Part shown: one piece after another, positions 8,811-25,439 of the stretch
Position numbering within the stretch: position 1 is the first letter of the stretch
Layout: each line of letters begins with the position of its first letter
Origin: a virus
Taxonomy: Duplodnaviria > Heunggongvirae > Uroviricota > Caudoviricetes
Virus record (IMG/VR): IMGVR_UViG_3300032053_000007
DNA length: 64,000 nucleotides
Direction: 5' to 3' (one strand)
The notes under the pieces: generated by a model
The model's input: only the letters and a program-made list of their open reading frames with translations
Told to the model about the DNA's origin: nothing
Database searches by the model: none
Position numbers and translations under genes: made by a program

Positions 8811-8839
8811 TGATAGTGATATATGGAGAGTAGAAAGAA

Positions 8840-10746: not shown

Positions 10747-10754
10747 ATGAAACA

Positions 10755-10922: not shown

Positions 10923-10936
10923 TATGTTCGAAATTT

Positions 10937-10969
10937 TGAGCATGGGCGTTCTACCACAAAGTTTATAAG
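10937..10969 (+). promoter_or_regulatory. GAGCATGG-box/TATA promoter cassette
   Basis: tGAGCATGGgcgTTCT..TTTATAAG; offset 24. Confidence 0.65.
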
Positions 10970-11008
10970 GAATGAATGCGTATTAGTGTGTAGATAGGTG
11001 AAACAGTA

Positions 11009-11404
11009 ATGTTTGAAATCTGGAAAGACCATTTGGCAACTTGTAACATCTTAGAATCTATGACTCCCGAAGGATGGATAATCGTAGATGTTAGAGATAT
11101 AAAGGATGGAACTGGCAACGATATTGAAGCTATAAAAACCAAAATACAAATCATAGCTAACCTTCTTTCTGTCGGGCAAAAAGTTGTAGTTAGATGTTGC
11201 GGCGGAATATCTCGGTCAAATACTATCGCATGTGCCGTAATGGTATTTATGCTTAATATTGACGGCAGAGATTTCGCTTATCATTGGGCAAAAGTTCGAA
11301 AAGCATGTCCACGGGCACTTATAAATATGGGATTCTTTGATGAAGTAAAGAAAGCCTTAGAAGAATTAGGCGTTGAAGAGAAACGGTTATTCTATGATAC
11401 CTAA
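11009..11404 (+). CDS. Cys-based (dual-specificity-type) protein phosphatase
   Basis: C-X5-R signature VVVRCCGGISRSNT. Confidence 0.7.
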   Translation: MFEIWKDHLATCNILESMTPEGWIIVDVRDIKDGTGNDIEAIKTKIQIIANLLSVGQKVVVRCCGGISRSNTIACAVMVFMLNIDGRDFAYHWAKVRKACPRALINMGFFDEVKKALEELGVEEKRLFYDT

Positions 11405-11651
11405 AAAGAAAGTATGGTTAGTCTGGGAATTTCAAATAGTAACTATAGAAACTGCTAAAGTTCAGTTACAGAGTCTTAGAGTTATCGCTGATACGGAAGA
11501 GAAAGGCGTTATCTATAAAGCCATATTTGAAAGAGAGAAACAATGGAAGTTTACTAAAGATGAATTATGGTTTGAACTTGAGGAAAGAGAGGTTAATCAT
11601 ATGTTCGGAATAGAAGACTTGAACAGATATGTGAGTAGAAATAGAATATGA
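11394..11651 (+). CDS. hypothetical protein
   Basis: track ORF 11373.. trimmed to ATG 11394. Confidence 0.5.
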   Translation: MIPKKKVWLVWEFQIVTIETAKVQLQSLRVIADTEEKGVIYKAIFEREKQWKFTKDELWFELEEREVNHMFGIEDLNRYVSRNRI

Positions 11652-12304
11652 ACAAACTTATTTGCTTAATGCCAGTTTACAACTCGGCTGATGTAGTTCT
11701 AGAAGCCTTAAAATCTATAGACGGCAAAGTTGATGAGATATTTTGTCTTGACGGGCGATGGATTGGTACGAGTGGTTTAGACCATTCAACTGATGAAACA
11801 CAGGAAATAATTTTGAATTTTTCTGAACATTCAAAATCTCGTGTTTGTTACACAAGATTACGACCTATGCATCAATGGGAAGCTAGGACAGAATCATTAA
11901 AATTTTGTGGTGATGGAGATTGGGCAATTTTTCTCGACTCAGATGAGATAATAATCATGTGGGGCGATAATGTTCGTAAAACGCTTGAAATATCAAATGA
12001 GAAAGTATATCGTATTTATTGGAAATTTTATAAACCTCATACGGCACTTCTAAGATATGGACTTGTTAAAAAGACAGAAACAATACATTGGTCAACAGAC
12101 CATAGGAGAATATTTGATAAAGATGGTGAATTAGATATAGTACATGCTCCAATAATCAATATTGTATTTGACCATCAAAAAATAGCCGACATAAAGAAGA
12201 TGCGTAAACGAGAGGAAGAATACAAACATTGGCTTCACGAATATGAAACTACACATTGGAATTTAGAAGATGGTCCAGACCCCAATCAAATTGATTTGGG
12301 ATAA
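11648..12304 (+). CDS. glycosyltransferase family 2-like
   Basis: LMPVYNSADVV N-terminus; FLDSDE DxD motif. Confidence 0.6.
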   Translation: MNKLICLMPVYNSADVVLEALKSIDGKVDEIFCLDGRWIGTSGLDHSTDETQEIILNFSEHSKSRVCYTRLRPMHQWEARTESLKFCGDGDWAIFLDSDEIIIMWGDNVRKTLEISNEKVYRIYWKFYKPHTALLRYGLVKKTETIHWSTDHRRIFDKDGELDIVHAPIINIVFDHQKIADIKKMRKREEEYKHWLHEYETTHWNLEDGPDPNQIDLG

Positions 12305-12555
12305 TCAAGATAGGAATTAGGTGGGTAATAAATTTTCCCATCAAAACATGGTATTTCTTTATAGTTCAATTCTTTACAACAAAAGTACCGATGATGACCA
12401 TTCAGAATTATGGCTTTTCCATCTTCACGAAACATTACTCGCAAAGGCTCTTTTAATCCATTAACTCGAATATCTTCAAGTAATACCTTCTCAACTTTGG
12501 GATTTCCTCTTGGAATTATTTTGTCTATGGGAACCATAATTATAGGGATTTTCAA
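12286..12555 (-). CDS. ParB/sulfiredoxin-like N-terminal domain protein (nuclease-type)
   Basis: PLRV..ILNGHHRYFCC..IPC; TTG start in junction. Confidence 0.65.
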   Translation of the reverse strand: MKIPIIMVPIDKIIPRGNPKVEKVLLEDIRVNGLKEPLRVMFREDGKAIILNGHHRYFCCKELNYKEIPCFDGKIYYPPNSYLDYPKSI

Positions 12556-12671
12556 GTGAACTGCACCTTAGTTTTTTCTTTTATATGTTTACAATTCTCA
12601 CAGAGCCATCGTGTCGTCTTTGGCTTCTTGTATAATACTTGAACATCTTTGCCACACCCATCGCAAATCAA
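12552..12671 (-). CDS. zinc-ribbon VxFT-tail mini-protein (39 aa)
   Basis: CDGCGK..CENC; ends TKVQFT; ovl at both ends. Confidence 0.55.
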   Translation of the reverse strand: MICDGCGKDVQVLYKKPKTTRWLCENCKHIKEKTKVQFT

Positions 12672-12850
12672 GTGAACTCGACCTTCTCTCCAAGTTCTCT
12701 ATAACCACATTCTTTAATTTGACCTTTACTTTTACAAGTGCATTTTTTACAAAGACAAACAGAAAGTCCTTTTGACACACTTTCCTCACACACTATATCA
12801 CCTTTACAGAAAAATTCTTTTCCACAATCAACACATTTCATTTTTATCAA
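12668..12850 (-). CDS. ZR-F family zinc-ribbon mini-protein
   Basis: CVDCGKEFFCKGDIVC..CLCKKC; ends EKVEFT. Confidence 0.65.
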   Translation of the reverse strand: MIKMKCVDCGKEFFCKGDIVCEESVSKGLSVCLCKKCTCKSKGQIKECGYRELGEKVEFT

Positions 12851-12960
12851 TCGAACTGCACCTTTACCCTCTCATCTTCTTTTTTCGGAAATTTAGGTTT
12901 CATTTTGTCGGCTGGAAGTAGAACAATGTTGTAATAGTCATCCCAACGATAGTTGCACAT
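12847..12960 (-). CDS. VxFT-tail mini-protein (37 aa)
   Basis: track ORF ..13089 trimmed to ATG 12960, 30 nt from TATA; ends VKVQFD. Confidence 0.45.
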   Translation of the reverse strand: MCNYRWDDYYNIVLLPADKMKPKFPKKEDERVKVQFD

Positions 12961-12985
12961 GGTAATCAATAGAACAATAACCATA

Positions 12986-13016
12986 AGACTTATATATACC
13001 TTTCTCCTTCTATATA
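12986..13016. promoter_or_regulatory. divergent promoter region (TATA boxes for minus operon and 13037 gene)
   Basis: cttatatatac plus ctatatac between divergent starts 12960(-) and 13037(+). Confidence 0.45.
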
Positions 13017-13036
13017 CAGATTGTGTAGTGATAAGC

Positions 13037-13201
13037 ATGGCAAAGCCATTTATTCCTTTGACAAAAGAGGAACAACAGGCTAGAGCCACTAGGATAGCAC
13101 AACGGGTTTGTACTTCATGCCGTTACGACTACGAAACTGGATGCAAAAAATGTATCTGGTATTTCATAATGAATGGAATGATAGGAGAGGAAGAATTTTG
13201 A
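13037..13201 (+). CDS. Cys-rich small protein
   Basis: track ORF 12953.. trimmed to ATG 13037 after SD GTGATAAGC; CTSC..CKKC. Confidence 0.5.
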   Translation: MAKPFIPLTKEEQQARATRIAQRVCTSCRYDYETGCKKCIWYFIMNGMIGEEEF

Positions 13202-13274
13202 GCGAGGAAGAATTAGAAGACGGTTCATTATTCTGGCAAGCATATCTTACTGACAATTGGGTGTTTAATCCTTC

Positions 13275-13481
13275 ATGAATCCCCTCAAGAAACTCTGGAA
13301 TCTTTTCATTACTCTACAGCTTTCTCTAATGTGGTGGCTTCTAACGGCTGTGATTCTTTTCAATTACTTTGGGTTTCTGGGATTGGTATGGGCGTTTTTT
13401 ATCATGTATTATGCCCGATACGCTAAACGAGAAGACCTCAAAAAGATGAGAGAAACCGCAAGGTTTATTAGTGACCGATAG
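13275..13481 (+). CDS. small membrane protein (2 TM)
   Basis: two hydrophobic helices. Confidence 0.55.
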   Translation: MNPLKKLWNLFITLQLSLMWWLLTAVILFNYFGFLGLVWAFFIMYYARYAKREDLKKMRETARFISDR

Positions 13482-13494
13482 ATACATTCTATAG

Positions 13495-14250
13495 ATGACT
13501 AATATGGCAAAATATATGATATGTATTTGCGGTTGGGTAAGTGAAGAATATCCAGATAATTGGATGCCTATAGGTTTAGGCGGAGTATTGGACTGTCCAA
13601 TATGTCATGCTCAACAACGAAATGCTACACTTGAAATGTGTTACGGTCACGTTTCTGTAGTTACCTTAAAGGAACTCAAAATGATTAGAGAATTTGAAGC
13701 AAGAGATATTCCGTGGGAAAAAGCAATATCGTTGTATCATGAAATAAAAATATGGGAAGGAGCTAGTGTGGAAAACTTGGCTAAAACTTATGAAAAACTT
13801 GAAACCAAATCTATTCATTGTCATCTTGCGTGGTTTGGTAGCGAGTTGGTTTGCAAAGAATGTAACCCAGTTTGCTATAAGAATCACCAGATGGGCAACC
13901 CAAATCATCTCAAATGGTGTGGCGAAGAGAAGTGTCCGATAAATCCCGAAAGATTCAAGAAACCAACATTTCCAGTAACATATAACCAAGAATTAGCTGA
14001 CTATCTAAGTTCTCCGCGAGAAGGTGTTTCTCCTAGAGAAAAAAAGGAAATAAAAAAGGGATTAGACGCATTAAAGACAGAAGAGGCTAAACCATTTGTT
14101 CCTGTAATACGTTCTCGAAGTGATGAATGCTGGGAAGAAGAGGAAGAACTGGAAGCAAAAGAGGATGCTATTCGAATGTCAAAGCGCAAGTCAATTCGCA
14201 AGGGTGGAAAATATAAAGAGCGAGGCAAGGAAAAACGGCGTGAACCATGA
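13495..14250 (+). CDS. Cys-rich protein with K/E-rich tail
   Basis: track ORF; several CxxC/CxxH pairs. Confidence 0.6.
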   Translation: MTNMAKYMICICGWVSEEYPDNWMPIGLGGVLDCPICHAQQRNATLEMCYGHVSVVTLKELKMIREFEARDIPWEKAISLYHEIKIWEGASVENLAKTYEKLETKSIHCHLAWFGSELVCKECNPVCYKNHQMGNPNHLKWCGEEKCPINPERFKKPTFPVTYNQELADYLSSPREGVSPREKKEIKKGLDALKTEEAKPFVPVIRSRSDECWEEEEELEAKEDAIRMSKRKSIRKGGKYKERGKEKRREP

Positions 14251-14411
14251 GTGATTGTAATAGATGTCCATATTGTGGTTCTGTTCCTATTCATGACCCA
14301 ATAATGTGTATAAATAAGTGCCCCCATTGTGGACGAATATGGTCTGATATTTACGCTGAGAATTATCTTTCAGATTTTTGGAACCGACCAGTAAAGGTAC
14401 AATTCGACTAA
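14247..14411 (+). CDS. zinc-ribbon VxFT-tail mini-protein (54 aa)
   Basis: CNRCPYCG..CPHCG; ends VKVQFD; stop TAA. Confidence 0.55.
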   Translation: MSDCNRCPYCGSVPIHDPIMCINKCPHCGRIWSDIYAENYLSDFWNRPVKVQFD

Positions 14412-14449
14412 CCGTAAAGTTTATATACTTCTTTTAATACAGTATCTCT

Positions 14450-14735
14450 TAGACACGGGTAATTGTTCACAACTTACATAGATGGACATGCCCCATGTTA
14501 GGACCTTTCGGGTACACGATTGGCGACAACATGATTGGTCGGACAACGAACAAGACCTATAGGAGTTGGGTGAACCCGCCAGCAATGCATTGGGGGTGGC
14601 GAAACCCTGACAAAACCGTGTCATGACCGAAGACCCACGGTGGGAGCGAAACGTACACTATGATATACGGATTGGCAGAACGGCTCGCCGTGATAGCTAT
14701 GGGGTCGGGTGTACTTTACCCGTCCCCACATTCTA
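14450..14735 (+). ncRNA. candidate structured ncRNA, class unknown
   Basis: own TATA (14420-14427); GC-richer than flanks; no + ORF; ends pair (acgggtaa 14455 / ttacccgt 14718); internal hairpins and GATTGG..ACAAC repeats. Confidence 0.45.
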
Positions 14736-14785
14736 TTTCCATAACCTTTAAATACCCGTTTTTCTTCTCATTCTAATGGATAGCA

Positions 14786-15229
14786 ATGGCTAGAATAAAG
14801 AAAAACATCAAAGGTATTCCGTTATTTTTATACGACTTTTTACAAATTTCCTTGTCAGCCTTCAAAGATTATTATCTAAAATTGAAGGTTTCTATAACAG
14901 GAGAAAATTATATTGGTCGTTATGTGGGAATCATTAGTTCATCTGAAAGACGACTTAGTTTTGAGAAATGCATAGCTGGTGGCTATACGGGGTATGTTCA
15001 GATAAAACTTTTCTCAAATCCAGATTGTGATGATTATGAAGAATGTGCAGAAGAAATTCTCAATCATGAAATACTTCATCAAGTGCTTGACAAAGTTGTG
15101 GGGCATGAAGCCAAAATGGGATTAGATAATATTCACAAGTCTTTCTATGTTCTCGATTGCAATGATAATAAGTGGCGGTTTGTGATAAAATTCATTAGCA
15201 AGAAAAAAGGGAATGTAGCCATTATCTGA
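14786..15229 (+). CDS. small HExxH metallopeptidase-like protein
   Basis: ILNHEILHQV; TATA TTTAAATA at 14747. Confidence 0.55.
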   Translation: MARIKKNIKGIPLFLYDFLQISLSAFKDYYLKLKVSITGENYIGRYVGIISSSERRLSFEKCIAGGYTGYVQIKLFSNPDCDDYEECAEEILNHEILHQVLDKVVGHEAKMGLDNIHKSFYVLDCNDNKWRFVIKFISKKKGNVAII

Positions 15230-15301
15230 GGTAAACAAAAACCTATAAGATGAACCGAAAGATTTATATATTAGTTAGAAGTATATAAGTTTGTGATTTC
15301 A

Positions 15302-15679
15302 ATGTCATTAAAAGATAGAAAACAAAAAAGACAATATATGAAAGATTATTGGATAACTCATCCAGAGAAATATGCGGACCAAAAGAAATCCATGACAAAA
15401 TTTCATAGAAAACAAAGACAATCGTTGAGAGTTGAGATTATTCAACTGCTCGGTAGCAAGTGTTCTAATACAGATTGTCCTATTCCACCTGAAAAGATGG
15501 ATATTAGATGTTTGCAAATAGACCATATAAATGGAAACGGAAATAAAGAACGAAGTCAATTTAGCAATTATAACCAATGGTTGAAATTTATCTTACCAAA
15601 AATACAAGTTGGTTCTAAAGATTATCAACTTCTTTGTGCATATTGTAATTGGATAAAACGTTATACTGAAAAATCCTAG
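15302..15679 (+). CDS. HNH endonuclease
   Basis: CLQIDHINGNGN..LLCAYCNWIK; trimmed to ATG 15302; TATA 15263. Confidence 0.65.
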   Translation: MSLKDRKQKRQYMKDYWITHPEKYADQKKSMTKFHRKQRQSLRVEIIQLLGSKCSNTDCPIPPEKMDIRCLQIDHINGNGNKERSQFSNYNQWLKFILPKIQVGSKDYQLLCAYCNWIKRYTEKS

Positions 15680-15727
15680 TATAAAAACCTATCGCAAGAT
15701 GTAAATAGGCGTTATACGTGAATTCTT

Positions 15728-15743
15728 TTAATCATATGATTAA
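15728..15743. promoter_or_regulatory. TTAATCA-NN-TGATTAA palindrome
   Basis: ttaatcatatgattaa. Confidence 0.5.
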
Positions 15744-15845
15744 ACTTTCAAAATGTGCGATTGGGCAAAAAGCGATTTCAAATCTTAACACCGTGGCTCT
15801 GCTCCGCACCATATGTTCAAACCGACTTATAAATGTTGCGGAAAT

Positions 15846-15878
15846 TGAGTATGGAGTTTCTAGCGCAAGGTTTATAAG
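15846..15878 (+). promoter_or_regulatory. GAGCATGG-box/TATA promoter cassette
   Basis: tGAGTATGGagtTTCT..TTTATAAG; offset 24; heads array 1. Confidence 0.65.
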
Positions 15879-15910
15879 GGACGAAAGACATTATTATTCC
15901 CAGATGGAAA

Positions 15911-16153
15911 ATGAGCGACAATCGTAAAACCCCATTCGGAAAACTCAACAGACGAGCAGAGCAAATTGCTGGTGATATTGATACAAAGAAGTTGGAAGAC
16001 GAGATTGGTGAGGCATTAGCAGATGCATGGCAAGCTGGCTATGACGAAGGATGCGGTACAGCACATGATGAGGGTTATCAGGAAGGAAAGGCAGAGGGCA
16101 TAAGGGAAGCCGAAGAGAAGTTTAAAGCCAAAGAGAAAGTGACGTTCACATGA
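15911..16153 (+). CDS. acidic VxFT-tail mini-protein
   Basis: ends EKVTFT, ovl ATGA. Confidence 0.6.
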   Translation: MSDNRKTPFGKLNRRAEQIAGDIDTKKLEDEIGEALADAWQAGYDEGCGTAHDEGYQEGKAEGIREAEEKFKAKEKVTFT

Positions 16154-16287
16154 TGAAGCCACCGAAAGAATGTTTTGTTTGTAGAGGAATTGGTTACGTG
16201 ATAGAAAGAAATCCAGACCCAAAAGGAGATAGATGGATTAGAGTTATGTGTAGAAGATGTAAAGGAGCGGGGTTTCTGAGAGAATGA
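16150..16287 (+). CDS. DnaJ-type CxxCxGxG zinc-finger mini-protein (45 aa)
   Basis: CFVCRGIG and CRRCKGAG; ATGA overlap at both ends. Confidence 0.55.
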   Translation: MMKPPKECFVCRGIGYVIERNPDPKGDRWIRVMCRRCKGAGFLRE

Positions 16288-16502
16288 TTCATTGTGAATG
16301 GAGAGGGTGTTCTAAGAAATCGGAATATGTTATCAATTGGAAAAACGAGCCTAGACCAATAATCATTGAACCTTTTGCGGACCATAACTTTCTTTGTGGA
16401 ACACACTTCAAAAAATTACAGCATGATTTTCCTGAGACAAAACAGAAACCTATAGAAATCTATGAACTTACAGACCCAGTTATAAAGGTGACATTTACTT
16501 GA
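16284..16502 (+). CDS. VxFT-tail mini-protein
   Basis: ends IKVTFT, ovl TTGA. Confidence 0.6.
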   Translation: MIHCEWRGCSKKSEYVINWKNEPRPIIIEPFADHNFLCGTHFKKLQHDFPETKQKPIEIYELTDPVIKVTFT

Positions 16503-16735
16503 ACTTTGACAAAATAAGGGCTGGCGACATTGTAATGTTCGAGCGAGAAGGAAAAATGCTTCATGGCAGAGTGTCAGCTAAAGGTTATCGTTATGTTGTT
16601 AGACCATTTGTGAATACTGATGAGCCAATTCTTTTCATTAGAGTGATTGAACATCCAGAATGGAAGGAAATAACTTTGTCTAGTAAAGAAGTAAAAAATA
16701 TTATCACAATAGGAGAAGTAGTGCATTTCACATGA
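16499..16735 (+). CDS. VxFT-tail mini-protein
   Basis: TTG start; ends EVVHFT. Confidence 0.6.
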   Translation: MNFDKIRAGDIVMFEREGKMLHGRVSAKGYRYVVRPFVNTDEPILFIRVIEHPEWKEITLSSKEVKNIITIGEVVHFT

Positions 16736-16833
16736 ACAGAAAAGATATAGACTATCCTCTCATCTTTAGACGACTTCGCTGGTTTAAACGACTTGCTAAA
16801 GAATATCAGAAAGAAAAGGTGCAGTTCACATGA
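16732..16833 (+). CDS. VxFT-tail mini-protein (33 aa)
   Basis: ends EKVQFT; ovl at both ends. Confidence 0.5.
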   Translation: MNRKDIDYPLIFRRLRWFKRLAKEYQKEKVQFT

Positions 16834-17102
16834 CAATCATACTTAAAAAGAACTTCAAGAAATGTCCTATGTGCGGCTCACGAAATTTAGCCCCTCATCT
16901 TCATAGCCAACATACTGAAAAGGAAGTACCGTGGGTTCGTTGCGAAGATTGTACGGCAATGTTTGTTAGAAGTTGTTCAAGTAATTCCCCAACAGAATCT
17001 ATTGTTATTTGGAATCGTAGAGGAAATGGCACTAAAATTGAGCCTGAAAGCACTAGCGTCTTTGTAACGCCAGAAGACCCAGAGGTTGTGCATTTTACAT
17101 GA
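16830..17102 (+). CDS. Lar-like (restriction-alleviation family) zinc-ribbon protein
   Basis: KCPMCGS..VRCEDC..IVIWNRR pattern; ends EVVHFT. Confidence 0.5.
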   Translation: MTIILKKNFKKCPMCGSRNLAPHLHSQHTEKEVPWVRCEDCTAMFVRSCSSNSPTESIVIWNRRGNGTKIEPESTSVFVTPEDPEVVHFT

Positions 17103-17347
17103 TTGGGTCAACTATTGCTAATATAAGAAAAGACGGACACACTAGATGTGTAGCAATGCATGGTCGGAGTGACCAATGCCCAAAAGAGGCAGAATTCTTA
17201 CTTTACTATAAAATACAAGGAAGAGTTAATGTTGAACCGTTTTGCGAAGATGACGCATATGAATTCTCAATGTATTTCTCGAATTATCTAGGGCTAAAAG
17301 TAATAATCGAAGAGATGAGACTTAAAGAGAGGGTACAATTTACATGA
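17099..17347 (+). CDS. Cys-rich VxFT-tail protein (paralog of 18682)
   Basis: AYEFSMYFSNYLGLKV shared; ends ERVQFT. Confidence 0.6.
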   Translation: MIGSTIANIRKDGHTRCVAMHGRSDQCPKEAEFLLYYKIQGRVNVEPFCEDDAYEFSMYFSNYLGLKVIIEEMRLKERVQFT

Positions 17348-17595
17348 TGAAGAGACCATGTGACAAGTGCAATAATATGTCTGATGCGTTAGTAAGAGTA
17401 CATCCAATTGATAAAAATGGACAAAATTTGGAAACTGTTTATCTTTGCCCAAATTGTCGTGCGGCGTGGGGAAAAGTTTATGATAAGGAAGTAAAGAATG
17501 TTGATTCTATTAAATTCCAAAGTGCGTGGACTAATTCTTGGGAAAACTTTATGAGTGGGAAATATGAAGAACGAGAAGTGGTGCAGTTTACATGA
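17344..17595 (+). CDS. ZR-W family zinc-ribbon mini-protein
   Basis: CDKC..CPNCRAAW; ends EVVQFT. Confidence 0.65.
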   Translation: MMKRPCDKCNNMSDALVRVHPIDKNGQNLETVYLCPNCRAAWGKVYDKEVKNVDSIKFQSAWTNSWENFMSGKYEEREVVQFT

Positions 17596-17774
17596 GTGCT
17601 GAACCAGTTCTTTTAACGCATCCTTCTAAACTGAACGTTAAATGGAGTATTTCGGGATGCACAGTACATAATTCGCTTAACAAAGAATATTGCATAAAAT
17701 CTTGCAGAATAAGAGAACATTGTACGGTTTATGTGTCAATTATGAATGAACGGGAGAAGGTTCAATTCACATGA
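17592..17774 (+). CDS. VxFT-tail mini-protein
   Basis: ends EKVQFT. Confidence 0.55.
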   Translation: MSAEPVLLTHPSKLNVKWSISGCTVHNSLNKEYCIKSCRIREHCTVYVSIMNEREKVQFT

Positions 17775-17998
17775 AACAACTCAAAGTTTTGCATTATGAT
17801 AAAGATTGTGGTTTGGTTCGTTTGACTACGCGAGAACATAGGTCTATACATTCTAATATTTGTTTCGGTTGTGGATATAATGGAGCAATAAAATGGAATT
17901 CTTATAACAAAGTTGTTCAATGTCACAATTGCGGACAGATAATAGCTAAACCAGAAAGTCATCCAGAATTAGAACGAGAGGTAGTGCAATTTACATGA
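17771..17998 (+). CDS. zinc-ribbon VxFT-tail mini-protein
   Basis: CFGCG..CHNCG; ends EVVQFT. Confidence 0.6.
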   Translation: MKQLKVLHYDKDCGLVRLTTREHRSIHSNICFGCGYNGAIKWNSYNKVVQCHNCGQIIAKPESHPELEREVVQFT

Positions 17999-18210
17999 CT
18001 GAACTACTAATTATTGGAATGATAAGTACAATTTGTGGTCTAATTATTGCAATGGTATTAGAGGCAAAAAGACAAAAACGCAAAATGATAAAAAGAGTAA
18101 GAATATATATCAAAGACCGTAATAAAACTTTACGTCTTTCAAAATGGAAAAGAATTGCTACTGAATGGAGAGAAGAATTAAAGAGACCTGTAAAGGTGAA
18201 GTTTACATGA
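17995..18210 (+). CDS. N-terminal-TM VxFT-tail mini-protein
   Basis: hydrophobic N-terminus; ends VKVKFT. Confidence 0.6.
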   Translation: MTELLIIGMISTICGLIIAMVLEAKRQKRKMIKRVRIYIKDRNKTLRLSKWKRIATEWREELKRPVKVKFT

Positions 18211-18560
18211 GCAAATTTTTACGGGCATATCTAGTTCAGGGTAACAAGAAATATGAGGGGATTTCATCAGTCGATATGACAGTAAAAGTGAATGGTGGCG
18301 ACATTTGGGAAATCGAACTTAAAATAGATAACGCACAGAAATTATGTAAAGATTGTGATAATAACAAAATGTTCAGGCTTCATATAGAAAGTACATCAAT
18401 GAAGGATTCAAAACCAATGATTGAAACTACTACAGGGGAAATACTAATAACTGAGATTGAATTTTTATCACAAACTCAATGTCGTGTAAATGGAATCGCA
18501 TCTAATATACGTTGGGCTTCCAGAGAAGGAATCACTAGAGAAAAGGTGCAATTTACGTGA
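18207..18560 (+). CDS. VxFT-tail protein
   Basis: track ORF 18165.. trimmed to junction ATG 18207; ends EKVQFT. Confidence 0.55.
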   Translation: MSKFLRAYLVQGNKKYEGISSVDMTVKVNGGDIWEIELKIDNAQKLCKDCDNNKMFRLHIESTSMKDSKPMIETTTGEILITEIEFLSQTQCRVNGIASNIRWASREGITREKVQFT

Positions 18561-18685
18561 AGTCAAAGTTATTTGATAATTGGGATACAGAAATTCAATA
18601 CAAAGCTAGAGTAATAGATTGGATGCTTGTTGTTGCAATTTGGAGACAGAACAAACACAGAAGGGAAAAGGTGCAGTTTACTTGA
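18557..18685 (+). CDS. VxFT-tail mini-protein (42 aa)
   Basis: GTG in junction ACGTGA; ends EKVQFT. Confidence 0.45.
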   Translation: MKSKLFDNWDTEIQYKARVIDWMLVVAIWRQNKHRREKVQFT

Positions 18686-18930
18686 ATGGTCGTGTTTTAA
18701 CCTGTTGTCTCGCGGTTGATTGTAGAAAAGAATCAGAGATTATTTTGTCATACAAAATGGTGCGAAGCGAAGGGAGCACTCGTGAATTTGCTACAAAAAT
18801 AACACATATATGCCACGATGAATTTTGTGAAGAACATGCTTATGAGTTCGGTATGTATTTTTCAAATTACTTAGGACTAAAAGTAAGAACAAAGAGAATA
18901 AATAGACCAGTAAAGGTGCAGTTTACATGA
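18682..18930 (+). CDS. Cys-rich VxFT-tail protein (paralog of 17099)
   Basis: track ORF 18619.. trimmed to junction TTG; ends VKVQFT. Confidence 0.6.
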   Translation: MNGRVLTCCLAVDCRKESEIILSYKMVRSEGSTREFATKITHICHDEFCEEHAYEFGMYFSNYLGLKVRTKRINRPVKVQFT

Positions 18931-19157
18931 AACGATGGTATCATAAAAAGTGTTGTTATTGCCATTGCAGTTTTATGTGTCACGGAGAATGTGGAATAGA
19001 ACTTAAAGCTAAACAAGAAACTGCTTGCTATTGTGGGGCTTGCATTCAAGAATTTGAGAGAGAGAAGGGTGGCAGAGAAATTGTCTCTGGAAAAGAGCGT
19101 TGTAGAAGTAGAATGGATTTTGGAATTGATGCAAAGGAGAAGGTGGAATTCACATAG
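18927..19157 (+). CDS. Cys-rich VxFT-tail mini-protein
   Basis: ends EKVEFT but stop is TAG (ACATAG), junction start lost. Confidence 0.6.
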   Translation: MKRWYHKKCCYCHCSFMCHGECGIELKAKQETACYCGACIQEFEREKGGREIVSGKERCRSRMDFGIDAKEKVEFT

Positions 19158-19201
19158 CTCTCAATACTTTTGGTTTAAAATTCAACTTCACTAAATGCCC
19201 T

Positions 19202-19405
19202 ATGTGCCATTCACGAAATATAGAAAAGAAAGAAGTATGTATGGAATGTAAAGATTGTCATGCTCAGTTTGTTCGAAGAGTACATCTTTTCGACAAAGAA
19301 TCATTGACGTGTATTTGGAATAGAAAAACAGATGGGACATATTTTGAGCATAGCAACAAAGTTTTTATAGTACCAGAGGACCCAGAGGTAGTGCAGTTCA
19401 CATGA
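19202..19405 (+). CDS. Lar-like zinc-ribbon protein, N-terminally compromised paralog of 16830
   Basis: homology continues upstream (FNFTKCPMC) to ATA 19154; first ATG removes first Cys; ends EVVQFT. Confidence 0.45.
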   Translation: MCHSRNIEKKEVCMECKDCHAQFVRRVHLFDKESLTCIWNRKTDGTYFEHSNKVFIVPEDPEVVQFT

Positions 19406-19692
19406 CTGTTTGGATTTGTCCGTTCTGTAAAAGTGAACTGATATTTACTGGAAAACGAAATGGCATAGGTTGGTTTGGAGATTTAGGCGCGAGTTTCTAT
19501 GCTTGTGAGTGCGGGCACAATATTATTAGCGAGGCATTCAAAAATGAAGATGGGACTCCAAAGATTTTCTATGATAATAAATGGGAACATCTTCTTAATG
19601 ACAAATGGAGATTTTATGATGAAAGGGATATGTGGGGAACGCCTAAAGATGTGCCGAAAGAATTAAAGAGAATAAAGGTGCAGTTTACTTGA
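19402..19692 (+). CDS. zinc-ribbon VxFT-tail protein
   Basis: CPFC..CECG; ends IKVQFT. Confidence 0.6.
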   Translation: MTVWICPFCKSELIFTGKRNGIGWFGDLGASFYACECGHNIISEAFKNEDGTPKIFYDNKWEHLLNDKWRFYDERDMWGTPKDVPKELKRIKVQFT

Positions 19693-19868
19693 CTGAATAT
19701 AAATGTACTTGTTGCACACTTACCAAAGGATGCATATTACGGACTAACAAACATGGAGAAATTTTTTGCACTCATGGTGGTAAAAGTATCAAAATTCCAA
19801 TTGAAAGGGAAATAAAACGTGGGGATTTAAAAGTGATAATACCGAGAGAGGTAGTGCAATTCACATGA
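19689..19868 (+). CDS. Cys-rich VxFT-tail mini-protein (59 aa)
   Basis: TTG junction start; ends EVVQFT. Confidence 0.5.
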   Translation: MTEYKCTCCTLTKGCILRTNKHGEIFCTHGGKSIKIPIEREIKRGDLKVIIPREVVQFT

Positions 19869-20104
19869 GAGCTAATTGGCTTAAAGGTAGAAAATGTGAC
19901 CGTTGTGGAAAAGAATCTGAATTGGTTTTAGGCAAATTTGAACATTTTCTTTGCAGAGAATGTAGTACAGAATGGGGTAATTTTATACAACCATTTCTTT
20001 CCAAACTTCATGATGTAGCGAGAACTCCTAAATGGTCTGAATTATGGGAAAAAATTTACGCCAAGTTTTTGGCTGAATGGATAGAGAAGGTACAATTCAC
20101 TTGA
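19865..20104 (+). CDS. ZR-W family zinc-ribbon mini-protein
   Basis: CDRCGK..CRECSTEW; ends EKVQFT. Confidence 0.65.
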   Translation: MRANWLKGRKCDRCGKESELVLGKFEHFLCRECSTEWGNFIQPFLSKLHDVARTPKWSELWEKIYAKFLAEWIEKVQFT

Positions 20105-20385
20105 CCGAAGAAATAAATCTTGAAAACCTCATTATTAAGGTGCGAAAAAGTACGCCTAAAAATCATAGACGAGCAAAAATTTGGGTTAAAAAAGGTTCGG
20201 CTAAAGTGGAGATTACTGACCAAGAAAAGTGGCTTAATGTAGAAGATATGTGTTGCGTTCTTAATCACGAGTTTCTTCATTGGATAATTACAAATATGAC
20301 AAAAACAAGACCTAAACAATATGACAAATACTTAGAGAGTCTTGGATTGTACTACCACGAAATATTAAGGGAAATATGGCAATAA
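20101..20385 (+). CDS. small HExxH metallopeptidase-like protein
   Basis: track ORF 20077.. trimmed to junction TTG; VLNHEFLHWI. Confidence 0.55.
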   Translation: MTEEINLENLIIKVRKSTPKNHRRAKIWVKKGSAKVEITDQEKWLNVEDMCCVLNHEFLHWIITNMTKTRPKQYDKYLESLGLYYHEILREIWQ

Positions 20386-20564
20386 GGGTAGTGAATAAGA
20401 TACCATTTGAAGAGATAAAGGAACGTGCAAAATGTAAGGAATGTTTAAGGGAAGAATACTGCAAGCGTATTCCAGTAAACGACCTTATCGTTCAGGCAAT
20501 AAAGGAGAATGGCAAGTGCCCAGACTTTATTACAACAGCTTCCCCGCCACCCGCTTCCTTCTGA
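20376..20564 (+). CDS. Cys-rich small protein
   Basis: CKEC..C..C; last gene of array 1. Confidence 0.5.
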   Translation: MAIRVVNKIPFEEIKERAKCKECLREEYCKRIPVNDLIVQAIKENGKCPDFITTASPPPASF

Positions 20565-20978
20565 GCATATACCAACTTTCTCTGGGATAGTCCCCTACCC
20601 CTAGCTCCCCTAGACGTTCAAAACTCCCTGAAAAAAAGACGTTTTCAGTTATTTTCTTTTCTCGAATCCTTAGTAAATCTAAATCGAAATGCTCAGGAAA
20701 TAGGAAATAAAAATAATACCAAAATAACAATCATAACAGAAATCACAAAGTTCGCCGACCAAAATCAAATTTTCGCCTGCGCGCCGCCTATGTGTGGGTA
20801 TGTGGTTTCAAAAAGTGTGACCGATGGTTTTTTCCTAAAGGTTTTTCTGCGTTACCCTTTTCCGTGTTTCCGTCTGGGTCACTTTCGAGGTTACGGTTAG
20901 TGTAACTTTCTGTGTCATTGAAAGTTCAACTCTTCCTTATATAATACGAGTTGCACCATATAAACCTTTCGGTAGTTA

Positions 20979-20994
20979 TTAATCAACTGATTAA
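20979..20994. promoter_or_regulatory. TTAATCA-NN-TGATTAA palindrome
   Basis: ttaatcaactgattaa. Confidence 0.55.
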
Positions 20995-21042
20995 AAGTTT
21001 GGGGCATGGAGCCGAGGGGGTGGAAAAAAGCCATCTGACCCC

Positions 21043-21174
21043 CGAACTGAATCGAACTCGGCAATACGAGCAAATTTCGGGGCGATTTGGCTCCCGCCCT
21101 TTCCCACCGAGAAAATTTCCCATAGGGTGAGTTTCGAACTGAGTCGAATTTCCGAAAACGAGCAAATTTCGAGG
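21043..21174 (+). repeat. two 40-nt imperfect direct repeats (period 92)
   Basis: cgaactgaRtcgaa..acgagcaaatttcgRgg at 21043-21082 and 21135-21174. Confidence 0.6.
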
Positions 21175-21311
21175 CAGATAATTTTTACAGGTCTCGCAAA
21201 TGACCATCACTTTTTTGCTGGTTGGGGATGTTTGTATGGAGAGAATGGCTTTCGAAATTTTTCGAAGTGCCAAAAAAGCTCCCAACCCTGCTGGTCATGG
21301 AAACCGAATGT

Positions 21312-21327
21312 TTAATCAACTGATTAA
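21312..21327. promoter_or_regulatory. TTAATCA-NN-TGATTAA palindrome
   Basis: ttaatcaactgattaa. Confidence 0.55.
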
Positions 21328-21392
21328 AATAGTTCCTTTTATGACCTTCGGCATGGAGAAGTCCATGCAAACCAGCGATACTCATAGGGTTT

Positions 21393-21425
21393 TGAGCATG
21401 GGAGTTCTTACTAAACCTTTATATA
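21393..21425 (+). promoter_or_regulatory. GAGCATGG-box/TATA promoter cassette
   Basis: tGAGCATGGgagTTCT..TTTATATA; offset 24. Confidence 0.65.
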
Positions 21426-21459
21426 GGGGAAAGCTATATCTCTAGGTAGTGACCGATTA

Positions 21460-21681
21460 ATGGGAAAAGTTAGAGATACAATGAAGCAGATAGGAATCAG
21501 GAACAGACCGAAAACCAATCTCGATAATGCTCAATGTCTCATTCAATGGGTTGCAAAGAAACACCCAAAAGTCTTAACTGAATATCTTGACTCCGAATTT
21601 TTCAAGATTCTAACGAGAACAAACCAATACGTTAGCGTCATGGAAGCAATGCACTTTCTTGATACAGGGAAGGATGAATAA
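21460..21681 (+). CDS. hypothetical protein
   Basis: track ORF. Confidence 0.55.
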   Translation: MGKVRDTMKQIGIRNRPKTNLDNAQCLIQWVAKKHPKVLTEYLDSEFFKILTRTNQYVSVMEAMHFLDTGKDE

Positions 21682-22337
21682 TGATTGAGGAAAAGAGAAA
21701 GAAAATTATAGTTACAATGGAACGGTTGCAAGACCTTCACCATTTAGCTATTCGACACCCGTTTCGTGTGAGTAGAAAAGGTACAACAGATGAATATTAT
21801 GACGTTCTTGATGAACTCGGTGAAGTTTTTCTAGCGTTAGTAAAGAAGTCTTTCGAGAACTCGGACATACCTTATCCGTGGTATCCGACAGGTAGATGGA
21901 TTTGGTCACACCAATATTGGTCATGCCTTCTTTCTCTCAGAGGGGAGATTGACGCTCAAACACCCGAATACATGGAAACTGTCGAACATTACCTAAATAC
22001 AATTCATCAATTCATGGAAAGAGAAAAACTCGAATCTTTCTATATGCACTCTGGTTATTCAACTTATGACAAGAAACAGCATGAAGAAAATCCCATGCGA
22101 AGTATGTTGTATGTCTATTATCCGAAAAGTAAAAGATGGGATTTGACAAAGTTCTGGGCTGAACGGGAATTGGAATATTGGAAGAAAGAACTAGCCGATG
22201 ATTTGGAACAAGTCAGGAAAGCAAAAAAAGATAAGGGACAATTCGTAAAAGTAAACGTCAACTATTATGAACGAAACACATATTACGATAGAAGAAGAAT
22301 AAAGGAATTGAAGGAGATAATAAATGGTGAAGCATAG
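21681..22337 (+). CDS. hypothetical protein
   Basis: track ORF 218 aa; TAATG overlap with previous. Confidence 0.6.
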   Translation: MIEEKRKKIIVTMERLQDLHHLAIRHPFRVSRKGTTDEYYDVLDELGEVFLALVKKSFENSDIPYPWYPTGRWIWSHQYWSCLLSLRGEIDAQTPEYMETVEHYLNTIHQFMEREKLESFYMHSGYSTYDKKQHEENPMRSMLYVYYPKSKRWDLTKFWAERELEYWKKELADDLEQVRKAKKDKGQFVKVNVNYYERNTYYDRRRIKELKEIINGEA

Positions 22338-22428
22338 ATTCATTCCGCGTCCTTTCATTGAGGACGATGAACGCCCGACTAGACCGATGCCTCACGGGAA
22401 TCCATTCGACTTAGGAGAACTTGATTAA
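22324..22428 (+). CDS. hypothetical mini-protein (34 aa)
   Basis: TAATG overlap with 22428 gene. Confidence 0.35.
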   Translation: MVKHRFIPRPFIEDDERPTRPMPHGNPFDLGELD

Positions 22429-22661
22429 TGCCTAAGAAATTCTACGCGCGTTGTGGTTTGTGCAAGAAAAACTTTGCAACAAAGAGAGGCGTTGATACTC
22501 ATTTTAAAAGTGAAGAACATCTCAGACGACTTGCAAGATGGTATGAACTTTGTACGGAAGGTAAAGAAAAAGGATTCACTTATATTTTAGGAAACATGGA
22601 AGGAAGTGCAAAGGAAGTTCTTGCAGAAGAGGAACGTCCAGAAGTTGTTAGCTTTGACTAA
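22428..22661 (+). CDS. C2H2 zinc-finger protein with VxFD tail
   Basis: C-x2-C-x12-H-x5-H (CGLCKKNF..HFKSEEH); ends EVVSFD. Confidence 0.55.
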   Translation: MPKKFYARCGLCKKNFATKRGVDTHFKSEEHLRRLARWYELCTEGKEKGFTYILGNMEGSAKEVLAEEERPEVVSFD

Positions 22662-22893
22662 AAGAAACTGTGAGAAATGTGGACGAGTTTTCACGGTGAC
22701 AGAAGATAAACTAAAATATCCTCATTCTATAGACGCTATTCTTTGTGGTTCTTGTCTAAGAAAATGGCTAGAGTTTTTTGCTGACCATAATACATTTTTT
22801 GTTGCTAAATATCCTAAGAAAATAAACCCAACTTGGGAAGTATTTAAGGGGAAAATTGCAGACTATACTAGAGAGAAGGTTGTGTTCACTTGA
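22654..22893 (+). CDS. ZR-W family zinc-ribbon mini-protein
   Basis: track ORF 22606.. trimmed to TTG 22654; CEKCG..CGSCLRKW; ends EKVVFT. Confidence 0.6.
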   Translation: MTKRNCEKCGRVFTVTEDKLKYPHSIDAILCGSCLRKWLEFFADHNTFFVAKYPKKINPTWEVFKGKIADYTREKVVFT

Positions 22894-23078
22894 CGACTTG
22901 GCAAATTGTTAAGTGTGACGTTTGCGGACGGTCTTATGAACAATACGGGGACGCTCACGATATTGGTGAACAAAACTTCTGCTGTGAACATTGCCTCTGG
23001 ACAGCAGTTAGTAATAGTGGAGAACCACAACCTAGACATACTTGCATAGAGGTAAAGGAAAAGGTGAACTTTACTTGA
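22890..23078 (+). CDS. zinc-ribbon VxFT-tail mini-protein
   Basis: CDVCG..CCEHC; ends EKVNFT. Confidence 0.6.
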   Translation: MTTWQIVKCDVCGRSYEQYGDAHDIGEQNFCCEHCLWTAVSNSGEPQPRHTCIEVKEKVNFT

Positions 23079-25369: not shown

Positions 25370-25385
25370 TTAATCAGTTGATTAA
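25370..25385. promoter_or_regulatory. TTAATCA-NN-TGATTAA palindrome
   Basis: ttaatcagttgattaa. Confidence 0.55.
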
Positions 25386-25436: not shown

Positions 25437-25439
25437 AAT

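What the first reader, a model, noticed from the sequence alone, without database searches (positions are those of the whole stretch)
16830..17102. Lar-like anti-restriction candidates embedded in the mini-gene array
16830..17102 and its paralog 19202..19405 show the pattern CP(M/F)CG..(V)xC.DC..F......(I)WN(R/K)(R/K). I associate this pattern with the Lar family of restriction-alleviation proteins.

Both end FxxPEDPEVV(H/Q)FT. If the assignment is correct, at least part of the mini-gene arsenal may be anti-defence. That would fit the rapid paralog turnover.
Basis: established knowledge. Interest (0 to 1): 0.5.

Follow-up and report, generated by a model that had tools for sequence, protein, structure and literature searches.

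The report
Two Lar-family zinc-ribbon mini-genes
Two small paralogous genes in a long run of tiny coupled genes do belong to the Lar/RalR zinc-ribbon family known from phages, but nothing here shows that they or their neighbours block host restriction, and one copy has lost its normal start codon.

Summary
The pattern is real. A Cys4...WN[RK][RK] regex matches only these two loci in six frames and matched none of 200 shuffled windows. The two proteins are paralogs (46% identity, E 4e-23).

ORF 16830..17102 (lar1, 90 aa) passes Pfam's curated threshold for Lar_restr_allev (31.8 vs 28.6 bits). Profiles of its clade match classical Lar/RalR proteins (hhalign 97.8%; lar2 subclade 96.8%). All family-invariant residues are present except F->M.

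The second copy really begins at 19154, not 19202. There the usual ATGA junction reads ATAG, so ATG has become ATA. The stated ATG would remove the first zinc ligand. Orthologs elsewhere start with ATG (dN/dS 0.09).

The shared VV(H/Q)FT ending is not a Lar feature. 71 ORFs in the window end E-[KV]-V-x-F-[TDS].

Function remains inference. The only tested family member, Rac Lar, is now annotated as the DNase toxin RalR. None of the other 69 tagged mini-proteins matches a family with an annotated function, anti-defence or otherwise.

The two genes are cistrons 6 and 16 of a 21-cistron coupled operon. The operon follows a conserved TATA-type promoter, in an uncultivated element of at least 151 kb that may be archaeal.

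Verdict: a new, divergent member of a known family, of modest interest.

The parts
16830..17102 (+). lar1: a 90-aa CDS for a Lar/RalR-family zinc-ribbon protein. It is the 6th cistron of the operon.
   Evidence: It is an intact ORF with an ATG start. It scores 31.8 bits on Pfam PF14354 against a gathering score of 28.6. It is identical or nearly so in 11 metagenome contigs.
16851..17021 (+). The Lar domain of lar1 (residues 8-64). It contains the KCPMCG knuckle, the CEDC knuckle and the WNRR motif.
   Evidence: The Pfam match covers residues 8-64, profile positions 2-57 of 58. C12, P13, C15, C38, C41 and N62 are invariant in a 61-sequence family alignment, and K10, W61 and R64 are nearly invariant. 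AlphaFold2 models a three-stranded core with block-mean pLDDT 66-83.
17022..17099 (+). A clade-specific 26-aa C-terminal extension (GNGTKIEPESTSVFVTPEDPEVVHFT). Its last six residues (17082..17099) are the array-wide E-V-V-x-F-T tag.
   Evidence: The extension is conserved in nine of the ten clade members as ..DGT..VF(I/V)..E..E(V/K/M)VxFT; the tenth, P0004, lacks the WNR-DGT stretch. It is absent from classical Lar proteins. Residues 74-90 have pLDDT below 50.
16813..16833 (+). The coupling junction upstream of lar1, GAAAAGGTGCAGTTCACATGA. An SD-like AAGGTG lies 8 nt before the ATG, and the ATG overlaps the upstream TGA stop.
   Evidence: The sequence is shown. The same junction recurs about 70 times on the + strand. 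Codon bias at tag positions -5 and -4 favours AAG and GTG.
19154..19405 (+). lar2: an 83-codon paralog of lar1 whose ancestral start codon now reads ATA. The first canonical in-frame ATG is at 19202 and would remove Cys1 of the zinc site. It is the 16th cistron.
   Evidence: The sequence and alignments are. Orthologs P0002 and P0021 start with ATG at the homologous position. dN/dS against the L012 ortholog is 0.09 over the full 83 codons. The ATA is identical in the five strain contigs that hold lar2.
19137..19157 (+). The altered junction upstream of lar2, GAGAAGGTGGAATTCACATAG. The SD-like box is intact, but TGA has become TAG, which destroys the overlapping ATG.
   Evidence: For comparison, L012 has ..GTACAATTCACATGAGTTTG at the same place.
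15842..15880 (+). A promoter-like composite element in front of the operon. It contains the conserved box GAGTATGGAGTTTCT, a purine-rich stretch and TTTATAAG. The TATA starts at 15871, 40 nt before the first ATG at 15911.
   Evidence: It is one of 26 matches to GARCATGGNNNTTCT (one mismatch allowed; 24 on the + strand), where 0.52 are expected by chance. The next copy is at 21394.
15911..20564 (+). A 21-cistron operon of mini-genes (33-117 aa). It is joined almost throughout by 4-nt ATGA, TTGA or GTGA overlaps, and it contains lar1 and lar2.
   Evidence: The ORF list and junctions are. There is no internal copy of the promoter box between 15847 and 21394. Gene calls on strain contigs agree.

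Best explanation
**What is shown.**
- lar1 (16830..17102) encodes a genuine but divergent member of the Lar/RalR family (Pfam PF14354).
- It has a four-cysteine zinc ribbon (KCPMCG...CEDC) followed by the family's WNRR motif. A clade-specific, probably disordered 26-residue tail follows.
- lar1 is the sixth cistron of a 21-cistron operon of mini-genes. Each cistron's start overlaps the previous stop (ATGA/TTGA) behind an SD-like AAGGTG.
- lar2 (19154..19405) is a paralog of a more divergent subtype. In this lineage its ATG has become ATA.

**What is inferred.**
- The operon is transcribed as one unit from a conserved TATA-type promoter. It belongs to the early, host-directed gene set of an uncultivated virus-like element of at least 151 kb.
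- The most likely mechanism, by analogy with Rac Lar, is that the small zinc ribbon binds a host DNA-modifying or DNA-cutting complex, classically a Type I restriction-modification enzyme. Binding would tip the enzyme from cutting towards methylating incoming DNA.
- lar2 is at best weakly translated, by reinitiation at ATA, and may be on its way to loss.

**How likely.** I put family membership at about 0.9. I put the anti-restriction mechanism at about 0.35-0.4.
For: **Family membership.**
- Pfam PF14354 scores 31.8 bits against a gathering score of 28.6, with near full-length profile coverage. PHROG 599 Lar-like gives E 1.3e-5.
- hhalign of the clade against classical Lar gives 97.8%, E 7e-13. 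The lar2 subclade gives 96.8%, E 2.8e-10.
- Direct BLASTP to E. coli RalR/Lar gives 27% identity, E 1e-4, and aligns both Cys pairs and WN(K/R)R.
- Of 154 database relatives found with the profile, nearly all carry PF14354. The named ones are 'Lar family restriction alleviation protein' or 'RalR'.
- The family-invariant residues C, P, C, C, C and N are all present, as are the nearly invariant K, W and R.

**Evidence that both are real genes.**
- lar1 is 98-100% identical in 11 contigs from JGI, ENA and Logan samples.
- lar2 compared with its ortholog has dN/dS 0.09.

**Operon context.**

**Function of the type member.**
- A Lar homolog in phage Bas63 is conditionally important on some hosts (PMC11482910).
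Against: - No experiment bears on these proteins.
- Only one family member has been tested, and it has two conflicting functional descriptions.
- lar1 is below NCBIfam's Lar cutoff (26.8 vs 39.6 bits).
- Of the six RalR positions where mutation reduced toxicity, only the WN(K/R) pair is conserved.
- The AlphaFold2 model is mediocre (mean pLDDT 58.5). No solved structure of the family exists for comparison.
- The host and its restriction systems are unknown.
- Neighbouring genes give no guilt-by-association signal.
- Early expression is inferred from gene architecture only.
Confidence: 0.4

Rival explanations
1. **RalR-like nuclease.** lar1 would be a small Mg2+/Ca2+-dependent non-specific DNase, like Rac RalR. 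The element would use it to damage host DNA, or as a toxin, rather than to modulate a restriction enzyme.
For: - RefSeq annotates the type member b1348 as 'endodeoxyribonuclease toxin RalR'.
- Purified RalR cleaved methylated and unmethylated DNA, and the K52Q mutant was inactive (PMC4041452).
- N51 and K52 of RalR align with N62 and R63 of lar1, in the conserved WNRR motif.
Against: - RalR positions 14, 37, 39 and 49, which also matter for toxicity, are not conserved in lar1.
- RalR is a stand-alone gene controlled by an sRNA antitoxin. lar1 is an internal cistron of a 21-gene operon, and no Rfam family matches in the window.
- A domain of about 57 residues built around a zinc ribbon has no recognisable nuclease fold. 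Structural matches are only non-significant TFIIS/Rpb9-type ribbons.
Confidence: 0.2
2. **Homologous scaffold, different job.** lar1 and lar2 would descend from the Lar family, but the zinc ribbon serves here as a small binding module for another target. The target could be a different defence system, a transcription or replication factor, or a partner that recognises the shared C-terminal tag. If so, 'restriction alleviation' does not describe it.
For: - The array holds dozens of unrelated Cys4 mini-proteins. 33 of the 71 tagged ORFs have at least two CxxC motifs.
- The clade has a conserved 26-aa tail that classical Lar proteins lack.
- The Lar domain occurs in many architectures, including tandem copies and fusions to DUF551. 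This suggests a versatile module.
- In Bas63, the authors suggest that the Lar homolog may help evade Type IV restriction systems rather than Type I.
Against: The family-specific WNRR motif and the K-x-CP-x-CG knuckle are kept under strong purifying selection. That argues the ancestral interaction surface is still in use.
Confidence: 0.3
3. **lar2 is a recently disabled gene.** It would be a pseudogene in the making rather than a second working copy.
For: - ATG has become ATA at the ancestral start. There is no other in-frame ATG, GTG or TTG before 19202, and that start would delete Cys1 of the zinc site.
- One strain variant (L005) lacks lar2 altogether.
Against: - The 83-codon frame is intact, and its SD-like box is unchanged.
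- The ATA allele is identical in the five strain contigs from different samples that hold lar2.
- By inference, a ribosome terminating at the overlapping TAG could reinitiate at ATA at low efficiency.
- dN/dS of 0.09 reflects mostly the older history and cannot date the loss.
Confidence: 0.5

Closest known systems
Lar / RalR of the E. coli K-12 Rac prophage (b1348, 64 aa; Pfam PF14354, NCBIfam TIGR03655)
   Same: It has the same domain: K-P-CPFCG knuckle, second CxxC, then a segment ending WNKR. BLASTP to lar1 gives E 1e-4. Profile-level homology is 97.8%. Like lar1, it is a small protein carried by a mobile element.
   Different: Identity is only 27%. lar1 has M for the near-invariant F, a 9-residue insert between the two knuckles, and a 26-aa C-terminal tail. 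It scores below the TIGR03655 cutoff. It sits inside a long coupled operon and is not a stand-alone gene with an sRNA antitoxin.
Phage Lar-like proteins (PHROG 599), e.g. Bas63 gene 32, and Lar-DUF551 fusions such as P0016 and P0025
   Same: lar1 matches PHROG 599 at E 1.3e-5. The stretch NL(A/T)PHL...WVRCE(D/E)C.A is shared almost verbatim with P0016 and P0025, at 44% identity over the domain.
   Different: Those proteins continue into a DUF551 domain or stop after WNRR. lar1 and lar2 continue into the clade-specific tail that ends in the array tag.
Ral of phage lambda
   Same: By established knowledge, Ral is a functional analog of Lar. [quoted passage not shown]
   Different: By established knowledge, it has no sequence relationship to Lar. 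It is a model for the mechanism only.
Early anti-defence gene clusters of archaeal viruses under a shared strong BRE/TATA promoter (Bhoobalan-Chitty et al. 2024, PMC11065993)
   Same: These are many small, mostly unannotated genes preceded by a highly conserved regulatory sequence with a purine-rich BRE and TTTAWATA. The window has about 22 such elements, one of them in front of the lar operon.
   Different: There the genes are mostly single units. Here up to 21 cistrons are coupled behind one promoter and carry a common C-terminal peptide. An archaeal host is only suggested here, not shown.

Membership tests
Lar family (Pfam PF14354 Lar_restr_allev) | Profile score at or above the curated gathering score (28.6 bits) | tested here: met
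   lar1 scores 31.8 bits, E 1.7e-7, over profile positions 2-57 of 58. lar2 from 19154 scores only 14.4 bits, and from 19202 gives no match. lar2's membership therefore rests on paralogy and on profile-profile comparison.
Lar family (Pfam PF14354 Lar_restr_allev) | Two zinc knuckles: K-x-C-P-F-C-G near the N-terminus and C-x-x-C about 20-25 residues later | tested here: met
   lar1 has KCPMCG and CEDC. lar2 has KCPMCH and CKDC. C, P, C, C and C are invariant in the 61-sequence alignment. The near-invariant F is M in both copies.
Lar family (Pfam PF14354 Lar_restr_allev) | C-terminal W-N-[RK]-R motif | tested here: met
   lar1 has WNRR. lar2 has WNRK. N is invariant and W and R are nearly invariant in the family alignments. 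One clade member (P0004) has lost the motif.
Lar family (Pfam PF14354 Lar_restr_allev) | Profile-profile homology to classical members when the query clade is excluded from the target profile | tested here: met
   hhalign of A5 against A6 gives 97.8%, E 7.2e-13. A8 (lar2 type) against A6 gives 96.8%, E 2.8e-10.
Lar family, strict NCBIfam subfamily TIGR03655 anti_R_Lar | Score at or above the curated cutoff (39.6 bits) | tested here: not met
   lar1 scores 26.8 bits and lar2 scores 9.9 bits. PGAP would not name either protein Lar.
Lar family (function) | Alleviates restriction and enhances modification by a Type I (EcoKI-like) R-M system | not testable with these tools
   This needs plating or methylation assays. 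Only Rac Lar has been tested (King & Murray 1995, cited).
RalR/RalA type I toxin-antitoxin system | Residues whose mutation lowers RalR toxicity (positions 14, 37, 39, 49, 51, 52) | tested here: inconclusive
   In alignment A3, only N51 (N62 in lar1) and K52 (R63 in lar1) are conserved. C14, T37, Y39 and R49 are not.
RalR/RalA type I toxin-antitoxin system | Stand-alone toxin gene paired with a small antitoxin RNA | tested here: not met
   lar1 and lar2 are internal cistrons of a 21-gene coupled operon. No Rfam family reaches its threshold anywhere in the window. I did not check whether RalA has an Rfam model.
RalR/RalA type I toxin-antitoxin system | Non-specific DNase activity and toxicity on overexpression | not testable with these tools
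   This needs biochemical and growth assays, as in PMC4041452.
Generic CPxCG zinc finger (PF19769) or other zinc-ribbon families | Score above the family's gathering threshold | tested here: not met
   CPxCG_zf scores 19.7 against 27.2. All other zinc-ribbon models are below threshold.
FdhE (the name JGI gave this protein) | Score above the TIGR01562 or PF24859 cutoff | tested here: not met
   TIGR01562 scores 17.2 against 187.65. FdhE_central scores 15.8 against 27. The JGI name reflects a zinc-ribbon cross-match.

The most novel reading that the evidence does not exclude
The Lar-like proteins may be two 'warheads' in a tagged arsenal. In this reading, an uncultivated element of at least 151 kb, possibly an archaeal (Bathyarchaeia?) virus, expresses more than 70 otherwise unrelated zinc-ribbon mini-proteins from conserved early promoters. 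All of them carry the same C-terminal peptide, E-[KV]-V-x-F-T-COOH. The peptide would be a functional address, for example for docking to one common host or viral machine, for co-packaging, or for timed degradation. The same nucleotides double as the ribosome-binding site of the next cistron and as a recombination joint for cassette exchange. If so, the Lar family would be shown to operate in archaeal virus-host conflict.
Probability: 0.12. Interest if true: 0.75.

Novelty: new member of a known kind. Interest (0 to 1): 0.35.

Why it matters
On its own this adds a divergent subclade to a widespread but barely characterised family. The subclade has nine relatives in public data, all with the same tail. 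The type member of the family has two conflicting functional assignments, anti-restriction and DNase toxin.

The value lies in the setting. lar1 is the only gene in a run of about 70 orphan mini-genes that matches a family with an annotated function. That makes it the natural first gene to test when asking what these coupled, C-terminally tagged operons do.

All named relatives are bacterial.

Tried and rejected
- **Phage DNA and protein searches.** Megablast of 14000-22000 and tblastn of the 575-aa ORF against 50,697 phage records found nothing.
- **First word-indexed protein search with lar1.** It returned only lar1 itself. The full HMMER scan and a profile search were needed.
- **PDB sequence search.** Only chance zinc-ribbon matches came back, all with E above 0.2.
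- **AlphaFold2 with 61 sequences.** Mean pLDDT was only 58.5. Foldseek against the PDB gave no match with E below 1; the top hits were TFIIS/Rpb9 ribbons. I did not use the model for functional inference.
- **hhalign of A2 against A4.** This was circular, because the target contained the query. I discarded it and replaced it.
- **Two scans of GTDB species genomes (KaiC-like ATPase; Lar clade profile).** Neither found a relative. IMG/VR gave only classical Lar proteins at about 32% identity and none of this clade. Host assignment by that route therefore failed.
- **tRNA and Rfam scans.** Neither found anything.
- **Sigma-70 promoter and terminator scan of 14000-22000.** Counts were not convincingly above shuffles: 33 vs 25.1 +/- 4.4, and 5 vs 4.8.
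- **Pfam scan of 43 larger ORFs.** It gave no marker diagnostic of domain of life.
- **Ideas considered and dropped.**
  - I dropped the idea that the junction is a frameshift site making a polyprotein. There is no slippery sequence, and every junction has its own SD-like box and start codon.
  - I dropped a simple tandem segmental duplication of lar1 plus its neighbour. The order of the paralog pairs is inverted.

Full report

The + strand ORF 16830..17102 encodes a 90-aa protein. It carries KCPMCG, then CEDC 22 residues further on, then IWNRR, and it ends FVTPEDPEVVHFT. The second locus reads ..KCPMCHSRN..CKDC..IWNRK..FIVPEDPEVVQFT.

A regex for two CxxC pairs followed by WN[RK][RK], run on all six frames, matches only these two places. 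It matched none of 200 shuffled windows. The two proteins align at 46% identity, E 4e-23. No third copy exists among 393 + strand ORFs.

**2. One correction: lar2 starts at 19154, not 19202.**

- The ATG at 19202 is the M inside CPMC, so an ORF starting there would lack the first zinc ligand.
- The homologous frame continues upstream to 19154. At that point every other gene of the array has the overlap TTCAC-ATGA, but here the sequence is TTCAC-ATAG. The upstream gene now stops at TAG, and the lar2 start reads ATA.
- Orthologs in other metagenomes begin with ATG at exactly this position: P0002 (MSQHTFSLEFNFKKCPMC..) and P0021 (MSLNTFSLKFNFAKCPMC..).
- Against the P0021 locus, the whole 83-codon frame, including the 16 codons upstream of 19202, has dN/dS 0.09.
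- The ATA allele is identical in the five strain contigs that hold lar2. A sixth strain variant lacks lar2 altogether.
- lar2 is therefore either weakly translated from ATA, by inference through reinitiation, or recently disabled.

**3. What the genes are.**

*Profile evidence.*
- lar1 passes Pfam's curated threshold for Lar_restr_allev: 31.8 vs 28.6 bits, E 1.7e-7, profile positions 2-57 of 58.
- lar1 matches PHROG 599 'Lar-like restriction alleviation protein'.
- lar1 is below the stricter NCBIfam TIGR03655 cutoff, 26.8 vs 39.6 bits.

*Relatives in public data.*
- An exhaustive HMMER scan of 1.84 billion representatives found 19 hits.
- The closest hits form a small clade of 82-98-aa proteins that share the C-terminal tail.
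- Most of the more distant hits whose sequences were retrieved are classical Lar proteins (LKPCPFCG...C..C...AWNRR), often tandem two-domain forms.
- A profile search returned 154 proteins, nearly all carrying PF14354. Where they are named, the names are 'Lar family restriction alleviation protein' or 'RalR'.

*Independent tests of homology.*
- With the clade removed from the target profile, hhalign gives 97.8% (E 7e-13) for the whole clade and 96.8% (E 2.8e-10) for the lar2 subtype.
- Direct BLASTP to E. coli Lar/RalR gives E 1e-4 and aligns both Cys pairs and WN(K/R)R.
- All family-invariant residues are present. The only departure is M for the near-invariant F.

*Structure.*
- AlphaFold2 models a three-stranded core for residues ~10-50 (pLDDT block means 66-83). 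The C-terminal tail has low confidence, with residues 74-90 below pLDDT 50.
- No solved homolog exists. Fold matches are non-significant TFIIS/Rpb9 zinc ribbons.

**4. What family membership does and does not tell us.**

- The only tested member is the Rac prophage gene b1348. It was described as alleviating EcoKI restriction and enhancing modification (King & Murray 1995, cited).
- RefSeq now annotates the same gene as 'endodeoxyribonuclease toxin RalR'. This follows the report that the purified protein cleaves DNA non-specifically, and that changes at positions 14, 37, 39, 49, 51 and 52 reduce toxicity (PMC4041452).
- In lar1, only the N51 and K52 equivalents (N62, R63) are conserved.
- A Lar homolog in phage Bas63 is conditionally important on some hosts, possibly against Type IV systems.
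- 'Lar family' is therefore a sound assignment. 'Anti-restriction' is only the leading hypothesis (about 0.35-0.4), ahead of a RalR-like nuclease role (about 0.2) and a repurposed binding module (about 0.3).

**5. Context.**

*The operon.*
- lar1 and lar2 are cistrons 6 and 16 of a run of 21 small genes, 15911..20564 (33-117 aa).
- The genes are joined by 4-nt ATGA, TTGA or GTGA overlaps, each preceded by an SD-like AAGGTG or GAGGT.
- The run is preceded at 15847-15878 by a composite element: GAGTATGGAGTTTCT, then a purine-rich stretch, then TTTATAAG. The TATA starts 40 nt before the first ATG.
- The box GARCATGGNNNTTCT has 26 matches in the window with one mismatch allowed (24 on the + strand), against 0.5 expected. 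About 22 copies have a fixed spacing to a TTTAWAWR box and usually lie about 30-47 nt before an ORF start.
- The next copy after the operon is at 21394.

*Possible host.*
- This architecture resembles archaeal BRE/TATA promoters. It also resembles the shared regulatory sequences that precede early anti-defence genes in archaeal viruses (PMC11065993).
- The closest named cellular homolog of the window's SPFH gene lies in a genuine Bathyarchaeia chromosome, at 45% identity.
- On the other side, one ORF has homologs of about 30% identity in many bacteriophages. A promoter for a virus-encoded polymerase could also be this conserved.
- I rate an archaeal host at roughly even odds.
- The element is uncultivated. 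Its longest contig is 151,787 bp. It is absent from the phage, GTDB and IMG/VR collections searched.

**6. The shared C-terminus.**

- 71 of 223 + strand ORFs end V-x-F-[TDS], mostly E-[KV]-V-x-F-T.
- Codon statistics show selection at the nucleotide level for the SD. At position -5, AAG occurs 33 times and AAA 4 times, although AAA makes up 69% of Lys codons genome-wide. At position -4, GTG is 54% against 14% genome-wide.
- There also seems to be constraint on the peptide itself. Tagged genes that end in TAA or TAG, with no overlapping downstream start, keep E..V.F[TD] but lose the AAG/GTG bias. They use any Thr codon (ACC, ACT, ACA here; ACG and ACC in the related element L012).
- After trimming the tag, only 4 small paralog groups remain. 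The tag therefore sits on otherwise unrelated bodies.
- Strain variants differ by whole cassettes, with breakpoints at or near these junctions.
- This is the most unusual feature of the window, but it lies outside the finding I was given.

**7. Does the rest of the array look anti-defence?**

Among the 71 tagged proteins, only lar1 matches Lar at the scan thresholds (E ≤ 0.01 in Pfam, ≤ 0.001 in PHROGs). Most of the other Pfam matches are generic zinc-ribbon or zinc-finger models and DUFs, none with an anti-defence annotation, and the other PHROG families matched carry no functional description.

**8. Verdict.**

- The pattern is real and non-random.
- The Lar-family assignment is supported for lar1 directly, and for lar2 by paralogy and profile comparison.
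- The lar2 coordinates and its status as an intact gene need correcting.
- The functional reading is unproven.
- This is a new, divergent member of a known family. Interest is modest (0.35). The surrounding tagged-operon system is of considerably higher interest.

Noticed in passing
window 5875..51907, + strand; clusters at 15911-20104, 22606-25013, 35184-41624 and 48648-51907: 71 of 223 + strand ORFs end V-x-F-[TDS], mostly E-[KV]-V-x-F-T. The last codons double as the SD-like box and overlapping start (ATGA/TTGA) of the next gene. Codon bias shows selection for the SD (AAG, GTG). Terminal genes with TAA or TAG stops keep the peptide but relax those codons, which suggests the peptide itself is also constrained. 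Apart from the tag, the protein bodies are mostly unrelated (only 4 paralog groups).
   Followed up: partly
window 961, 3077, 5135, 6518, 10938, 15847, 21394, 25012, 25764, 26432, 28962, 31484, 37046, 42653, 44920, 49236, 52325, 52785, 53267, 54450, 54745, 55033 (+ strand): A composite element of about 45 nt recurs: TTGAGCATGG-NNN-TTCT, then a purine-rich stretch, then TTTATAWRG, with fixed spacing. It usually lies about 30-47 nt upstream of an ORF start. The box has 26 matches with one mismatch allowed, where 0.5 are expected. It looks like an archaeal BRE/TATA promoter with an added upstream operator-like box. A promoter for a virus-encoded polymerase is an alternative.
   Followed up: partly
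window 31554..32450; loci L022 and L023: The closest named cellular homolog of the SPFH/prohibitin gene (45% identity) lies in a genuine chromosome of a Bathyarchaeia MAG (GCA_030153525.1), next to eRF1 and beta-CASP genes. Together with the TATA-type promoters and the GGTGA/GTGAT-type ribosome-binding sites, this hints at an archaeal host. SPFH homologs at 48-86% identity sit on further contigs of 112-141 kb, and more distant ones (about 30%) on contigs up to 194 kb; these may belong to related elements.
   Followed up: partly
window 17998..20083 compared with locus L005 2174..3115; also upstream of lar1, L005 837..1001: Strains that are nearly identical elsewhere differ by whole mini-gene cassettes. 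L005 lacks lar2 and several neighbours, and it has an extra mini-gene in front of lar1. The breakpoints fall at or within about 13 nt of the conserved TTYACWTGA junctions. This is consistent with recombination at the junctions.
   Followed up: partly
window 17099..17347 and 18682..18930; 17344..17595 and 38719..38985; 22606..22893, 38340..38606 and 39812..40027: These are the other paralog groups among the mini-genes. The pair 17099 and 18682 shares ..C(E/E)(D/E)xAYEF(S/G)MYFSNYLGLKV. Several ORFs in the mechanical list start too early. The true starts are the junction codons, for example TTG 18682, ATG 18207 and TTG 20101.
   Followed up: partly
window 20565..21393: This stretch of about 830 nt follows the operon and has no convincing ORF. 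GC in the surrounding 20001-22000 window is somewhat raised (0.398). Strain contig L001 carries a 316-nt deletion here (20996..21312). A strong sigma-70-like match lies at 20918-20945. No Rfam family matches.
   Followed up: no
window about 52000..64000: Composition changes here. GC rises to 0.39-0.43, GC skew turns to near zero or negative, intergenic gaps are longer, and stops are mostly TAA rather than overlapping TGA. The tagged mini-genes end at 51907. This may be a different functional module, for example late or structural genes.
   Followed up: no
window 16830..17102 (protein P0001): JGI names this protein 'formate dehydrogenase maturation protein FdhE'. That is a zinc-ribbon cross-match: TIGR01562 scores 17 bits against a cutoff of 188.
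   Followed up: yes
window 9589..10266: This 225-aa ORF matches PHROG 6452 (unknown function) strongly, at E 2.7e-40. It has homologs at about 30% identity in 53 phage records, all with bacterial hosts among those listed (Microbacterium, Mesorhizobium, Microcystis, Yersinia phiR1-37 and others). It is the clearest link between this element and known viruses.
   Followed up: partly
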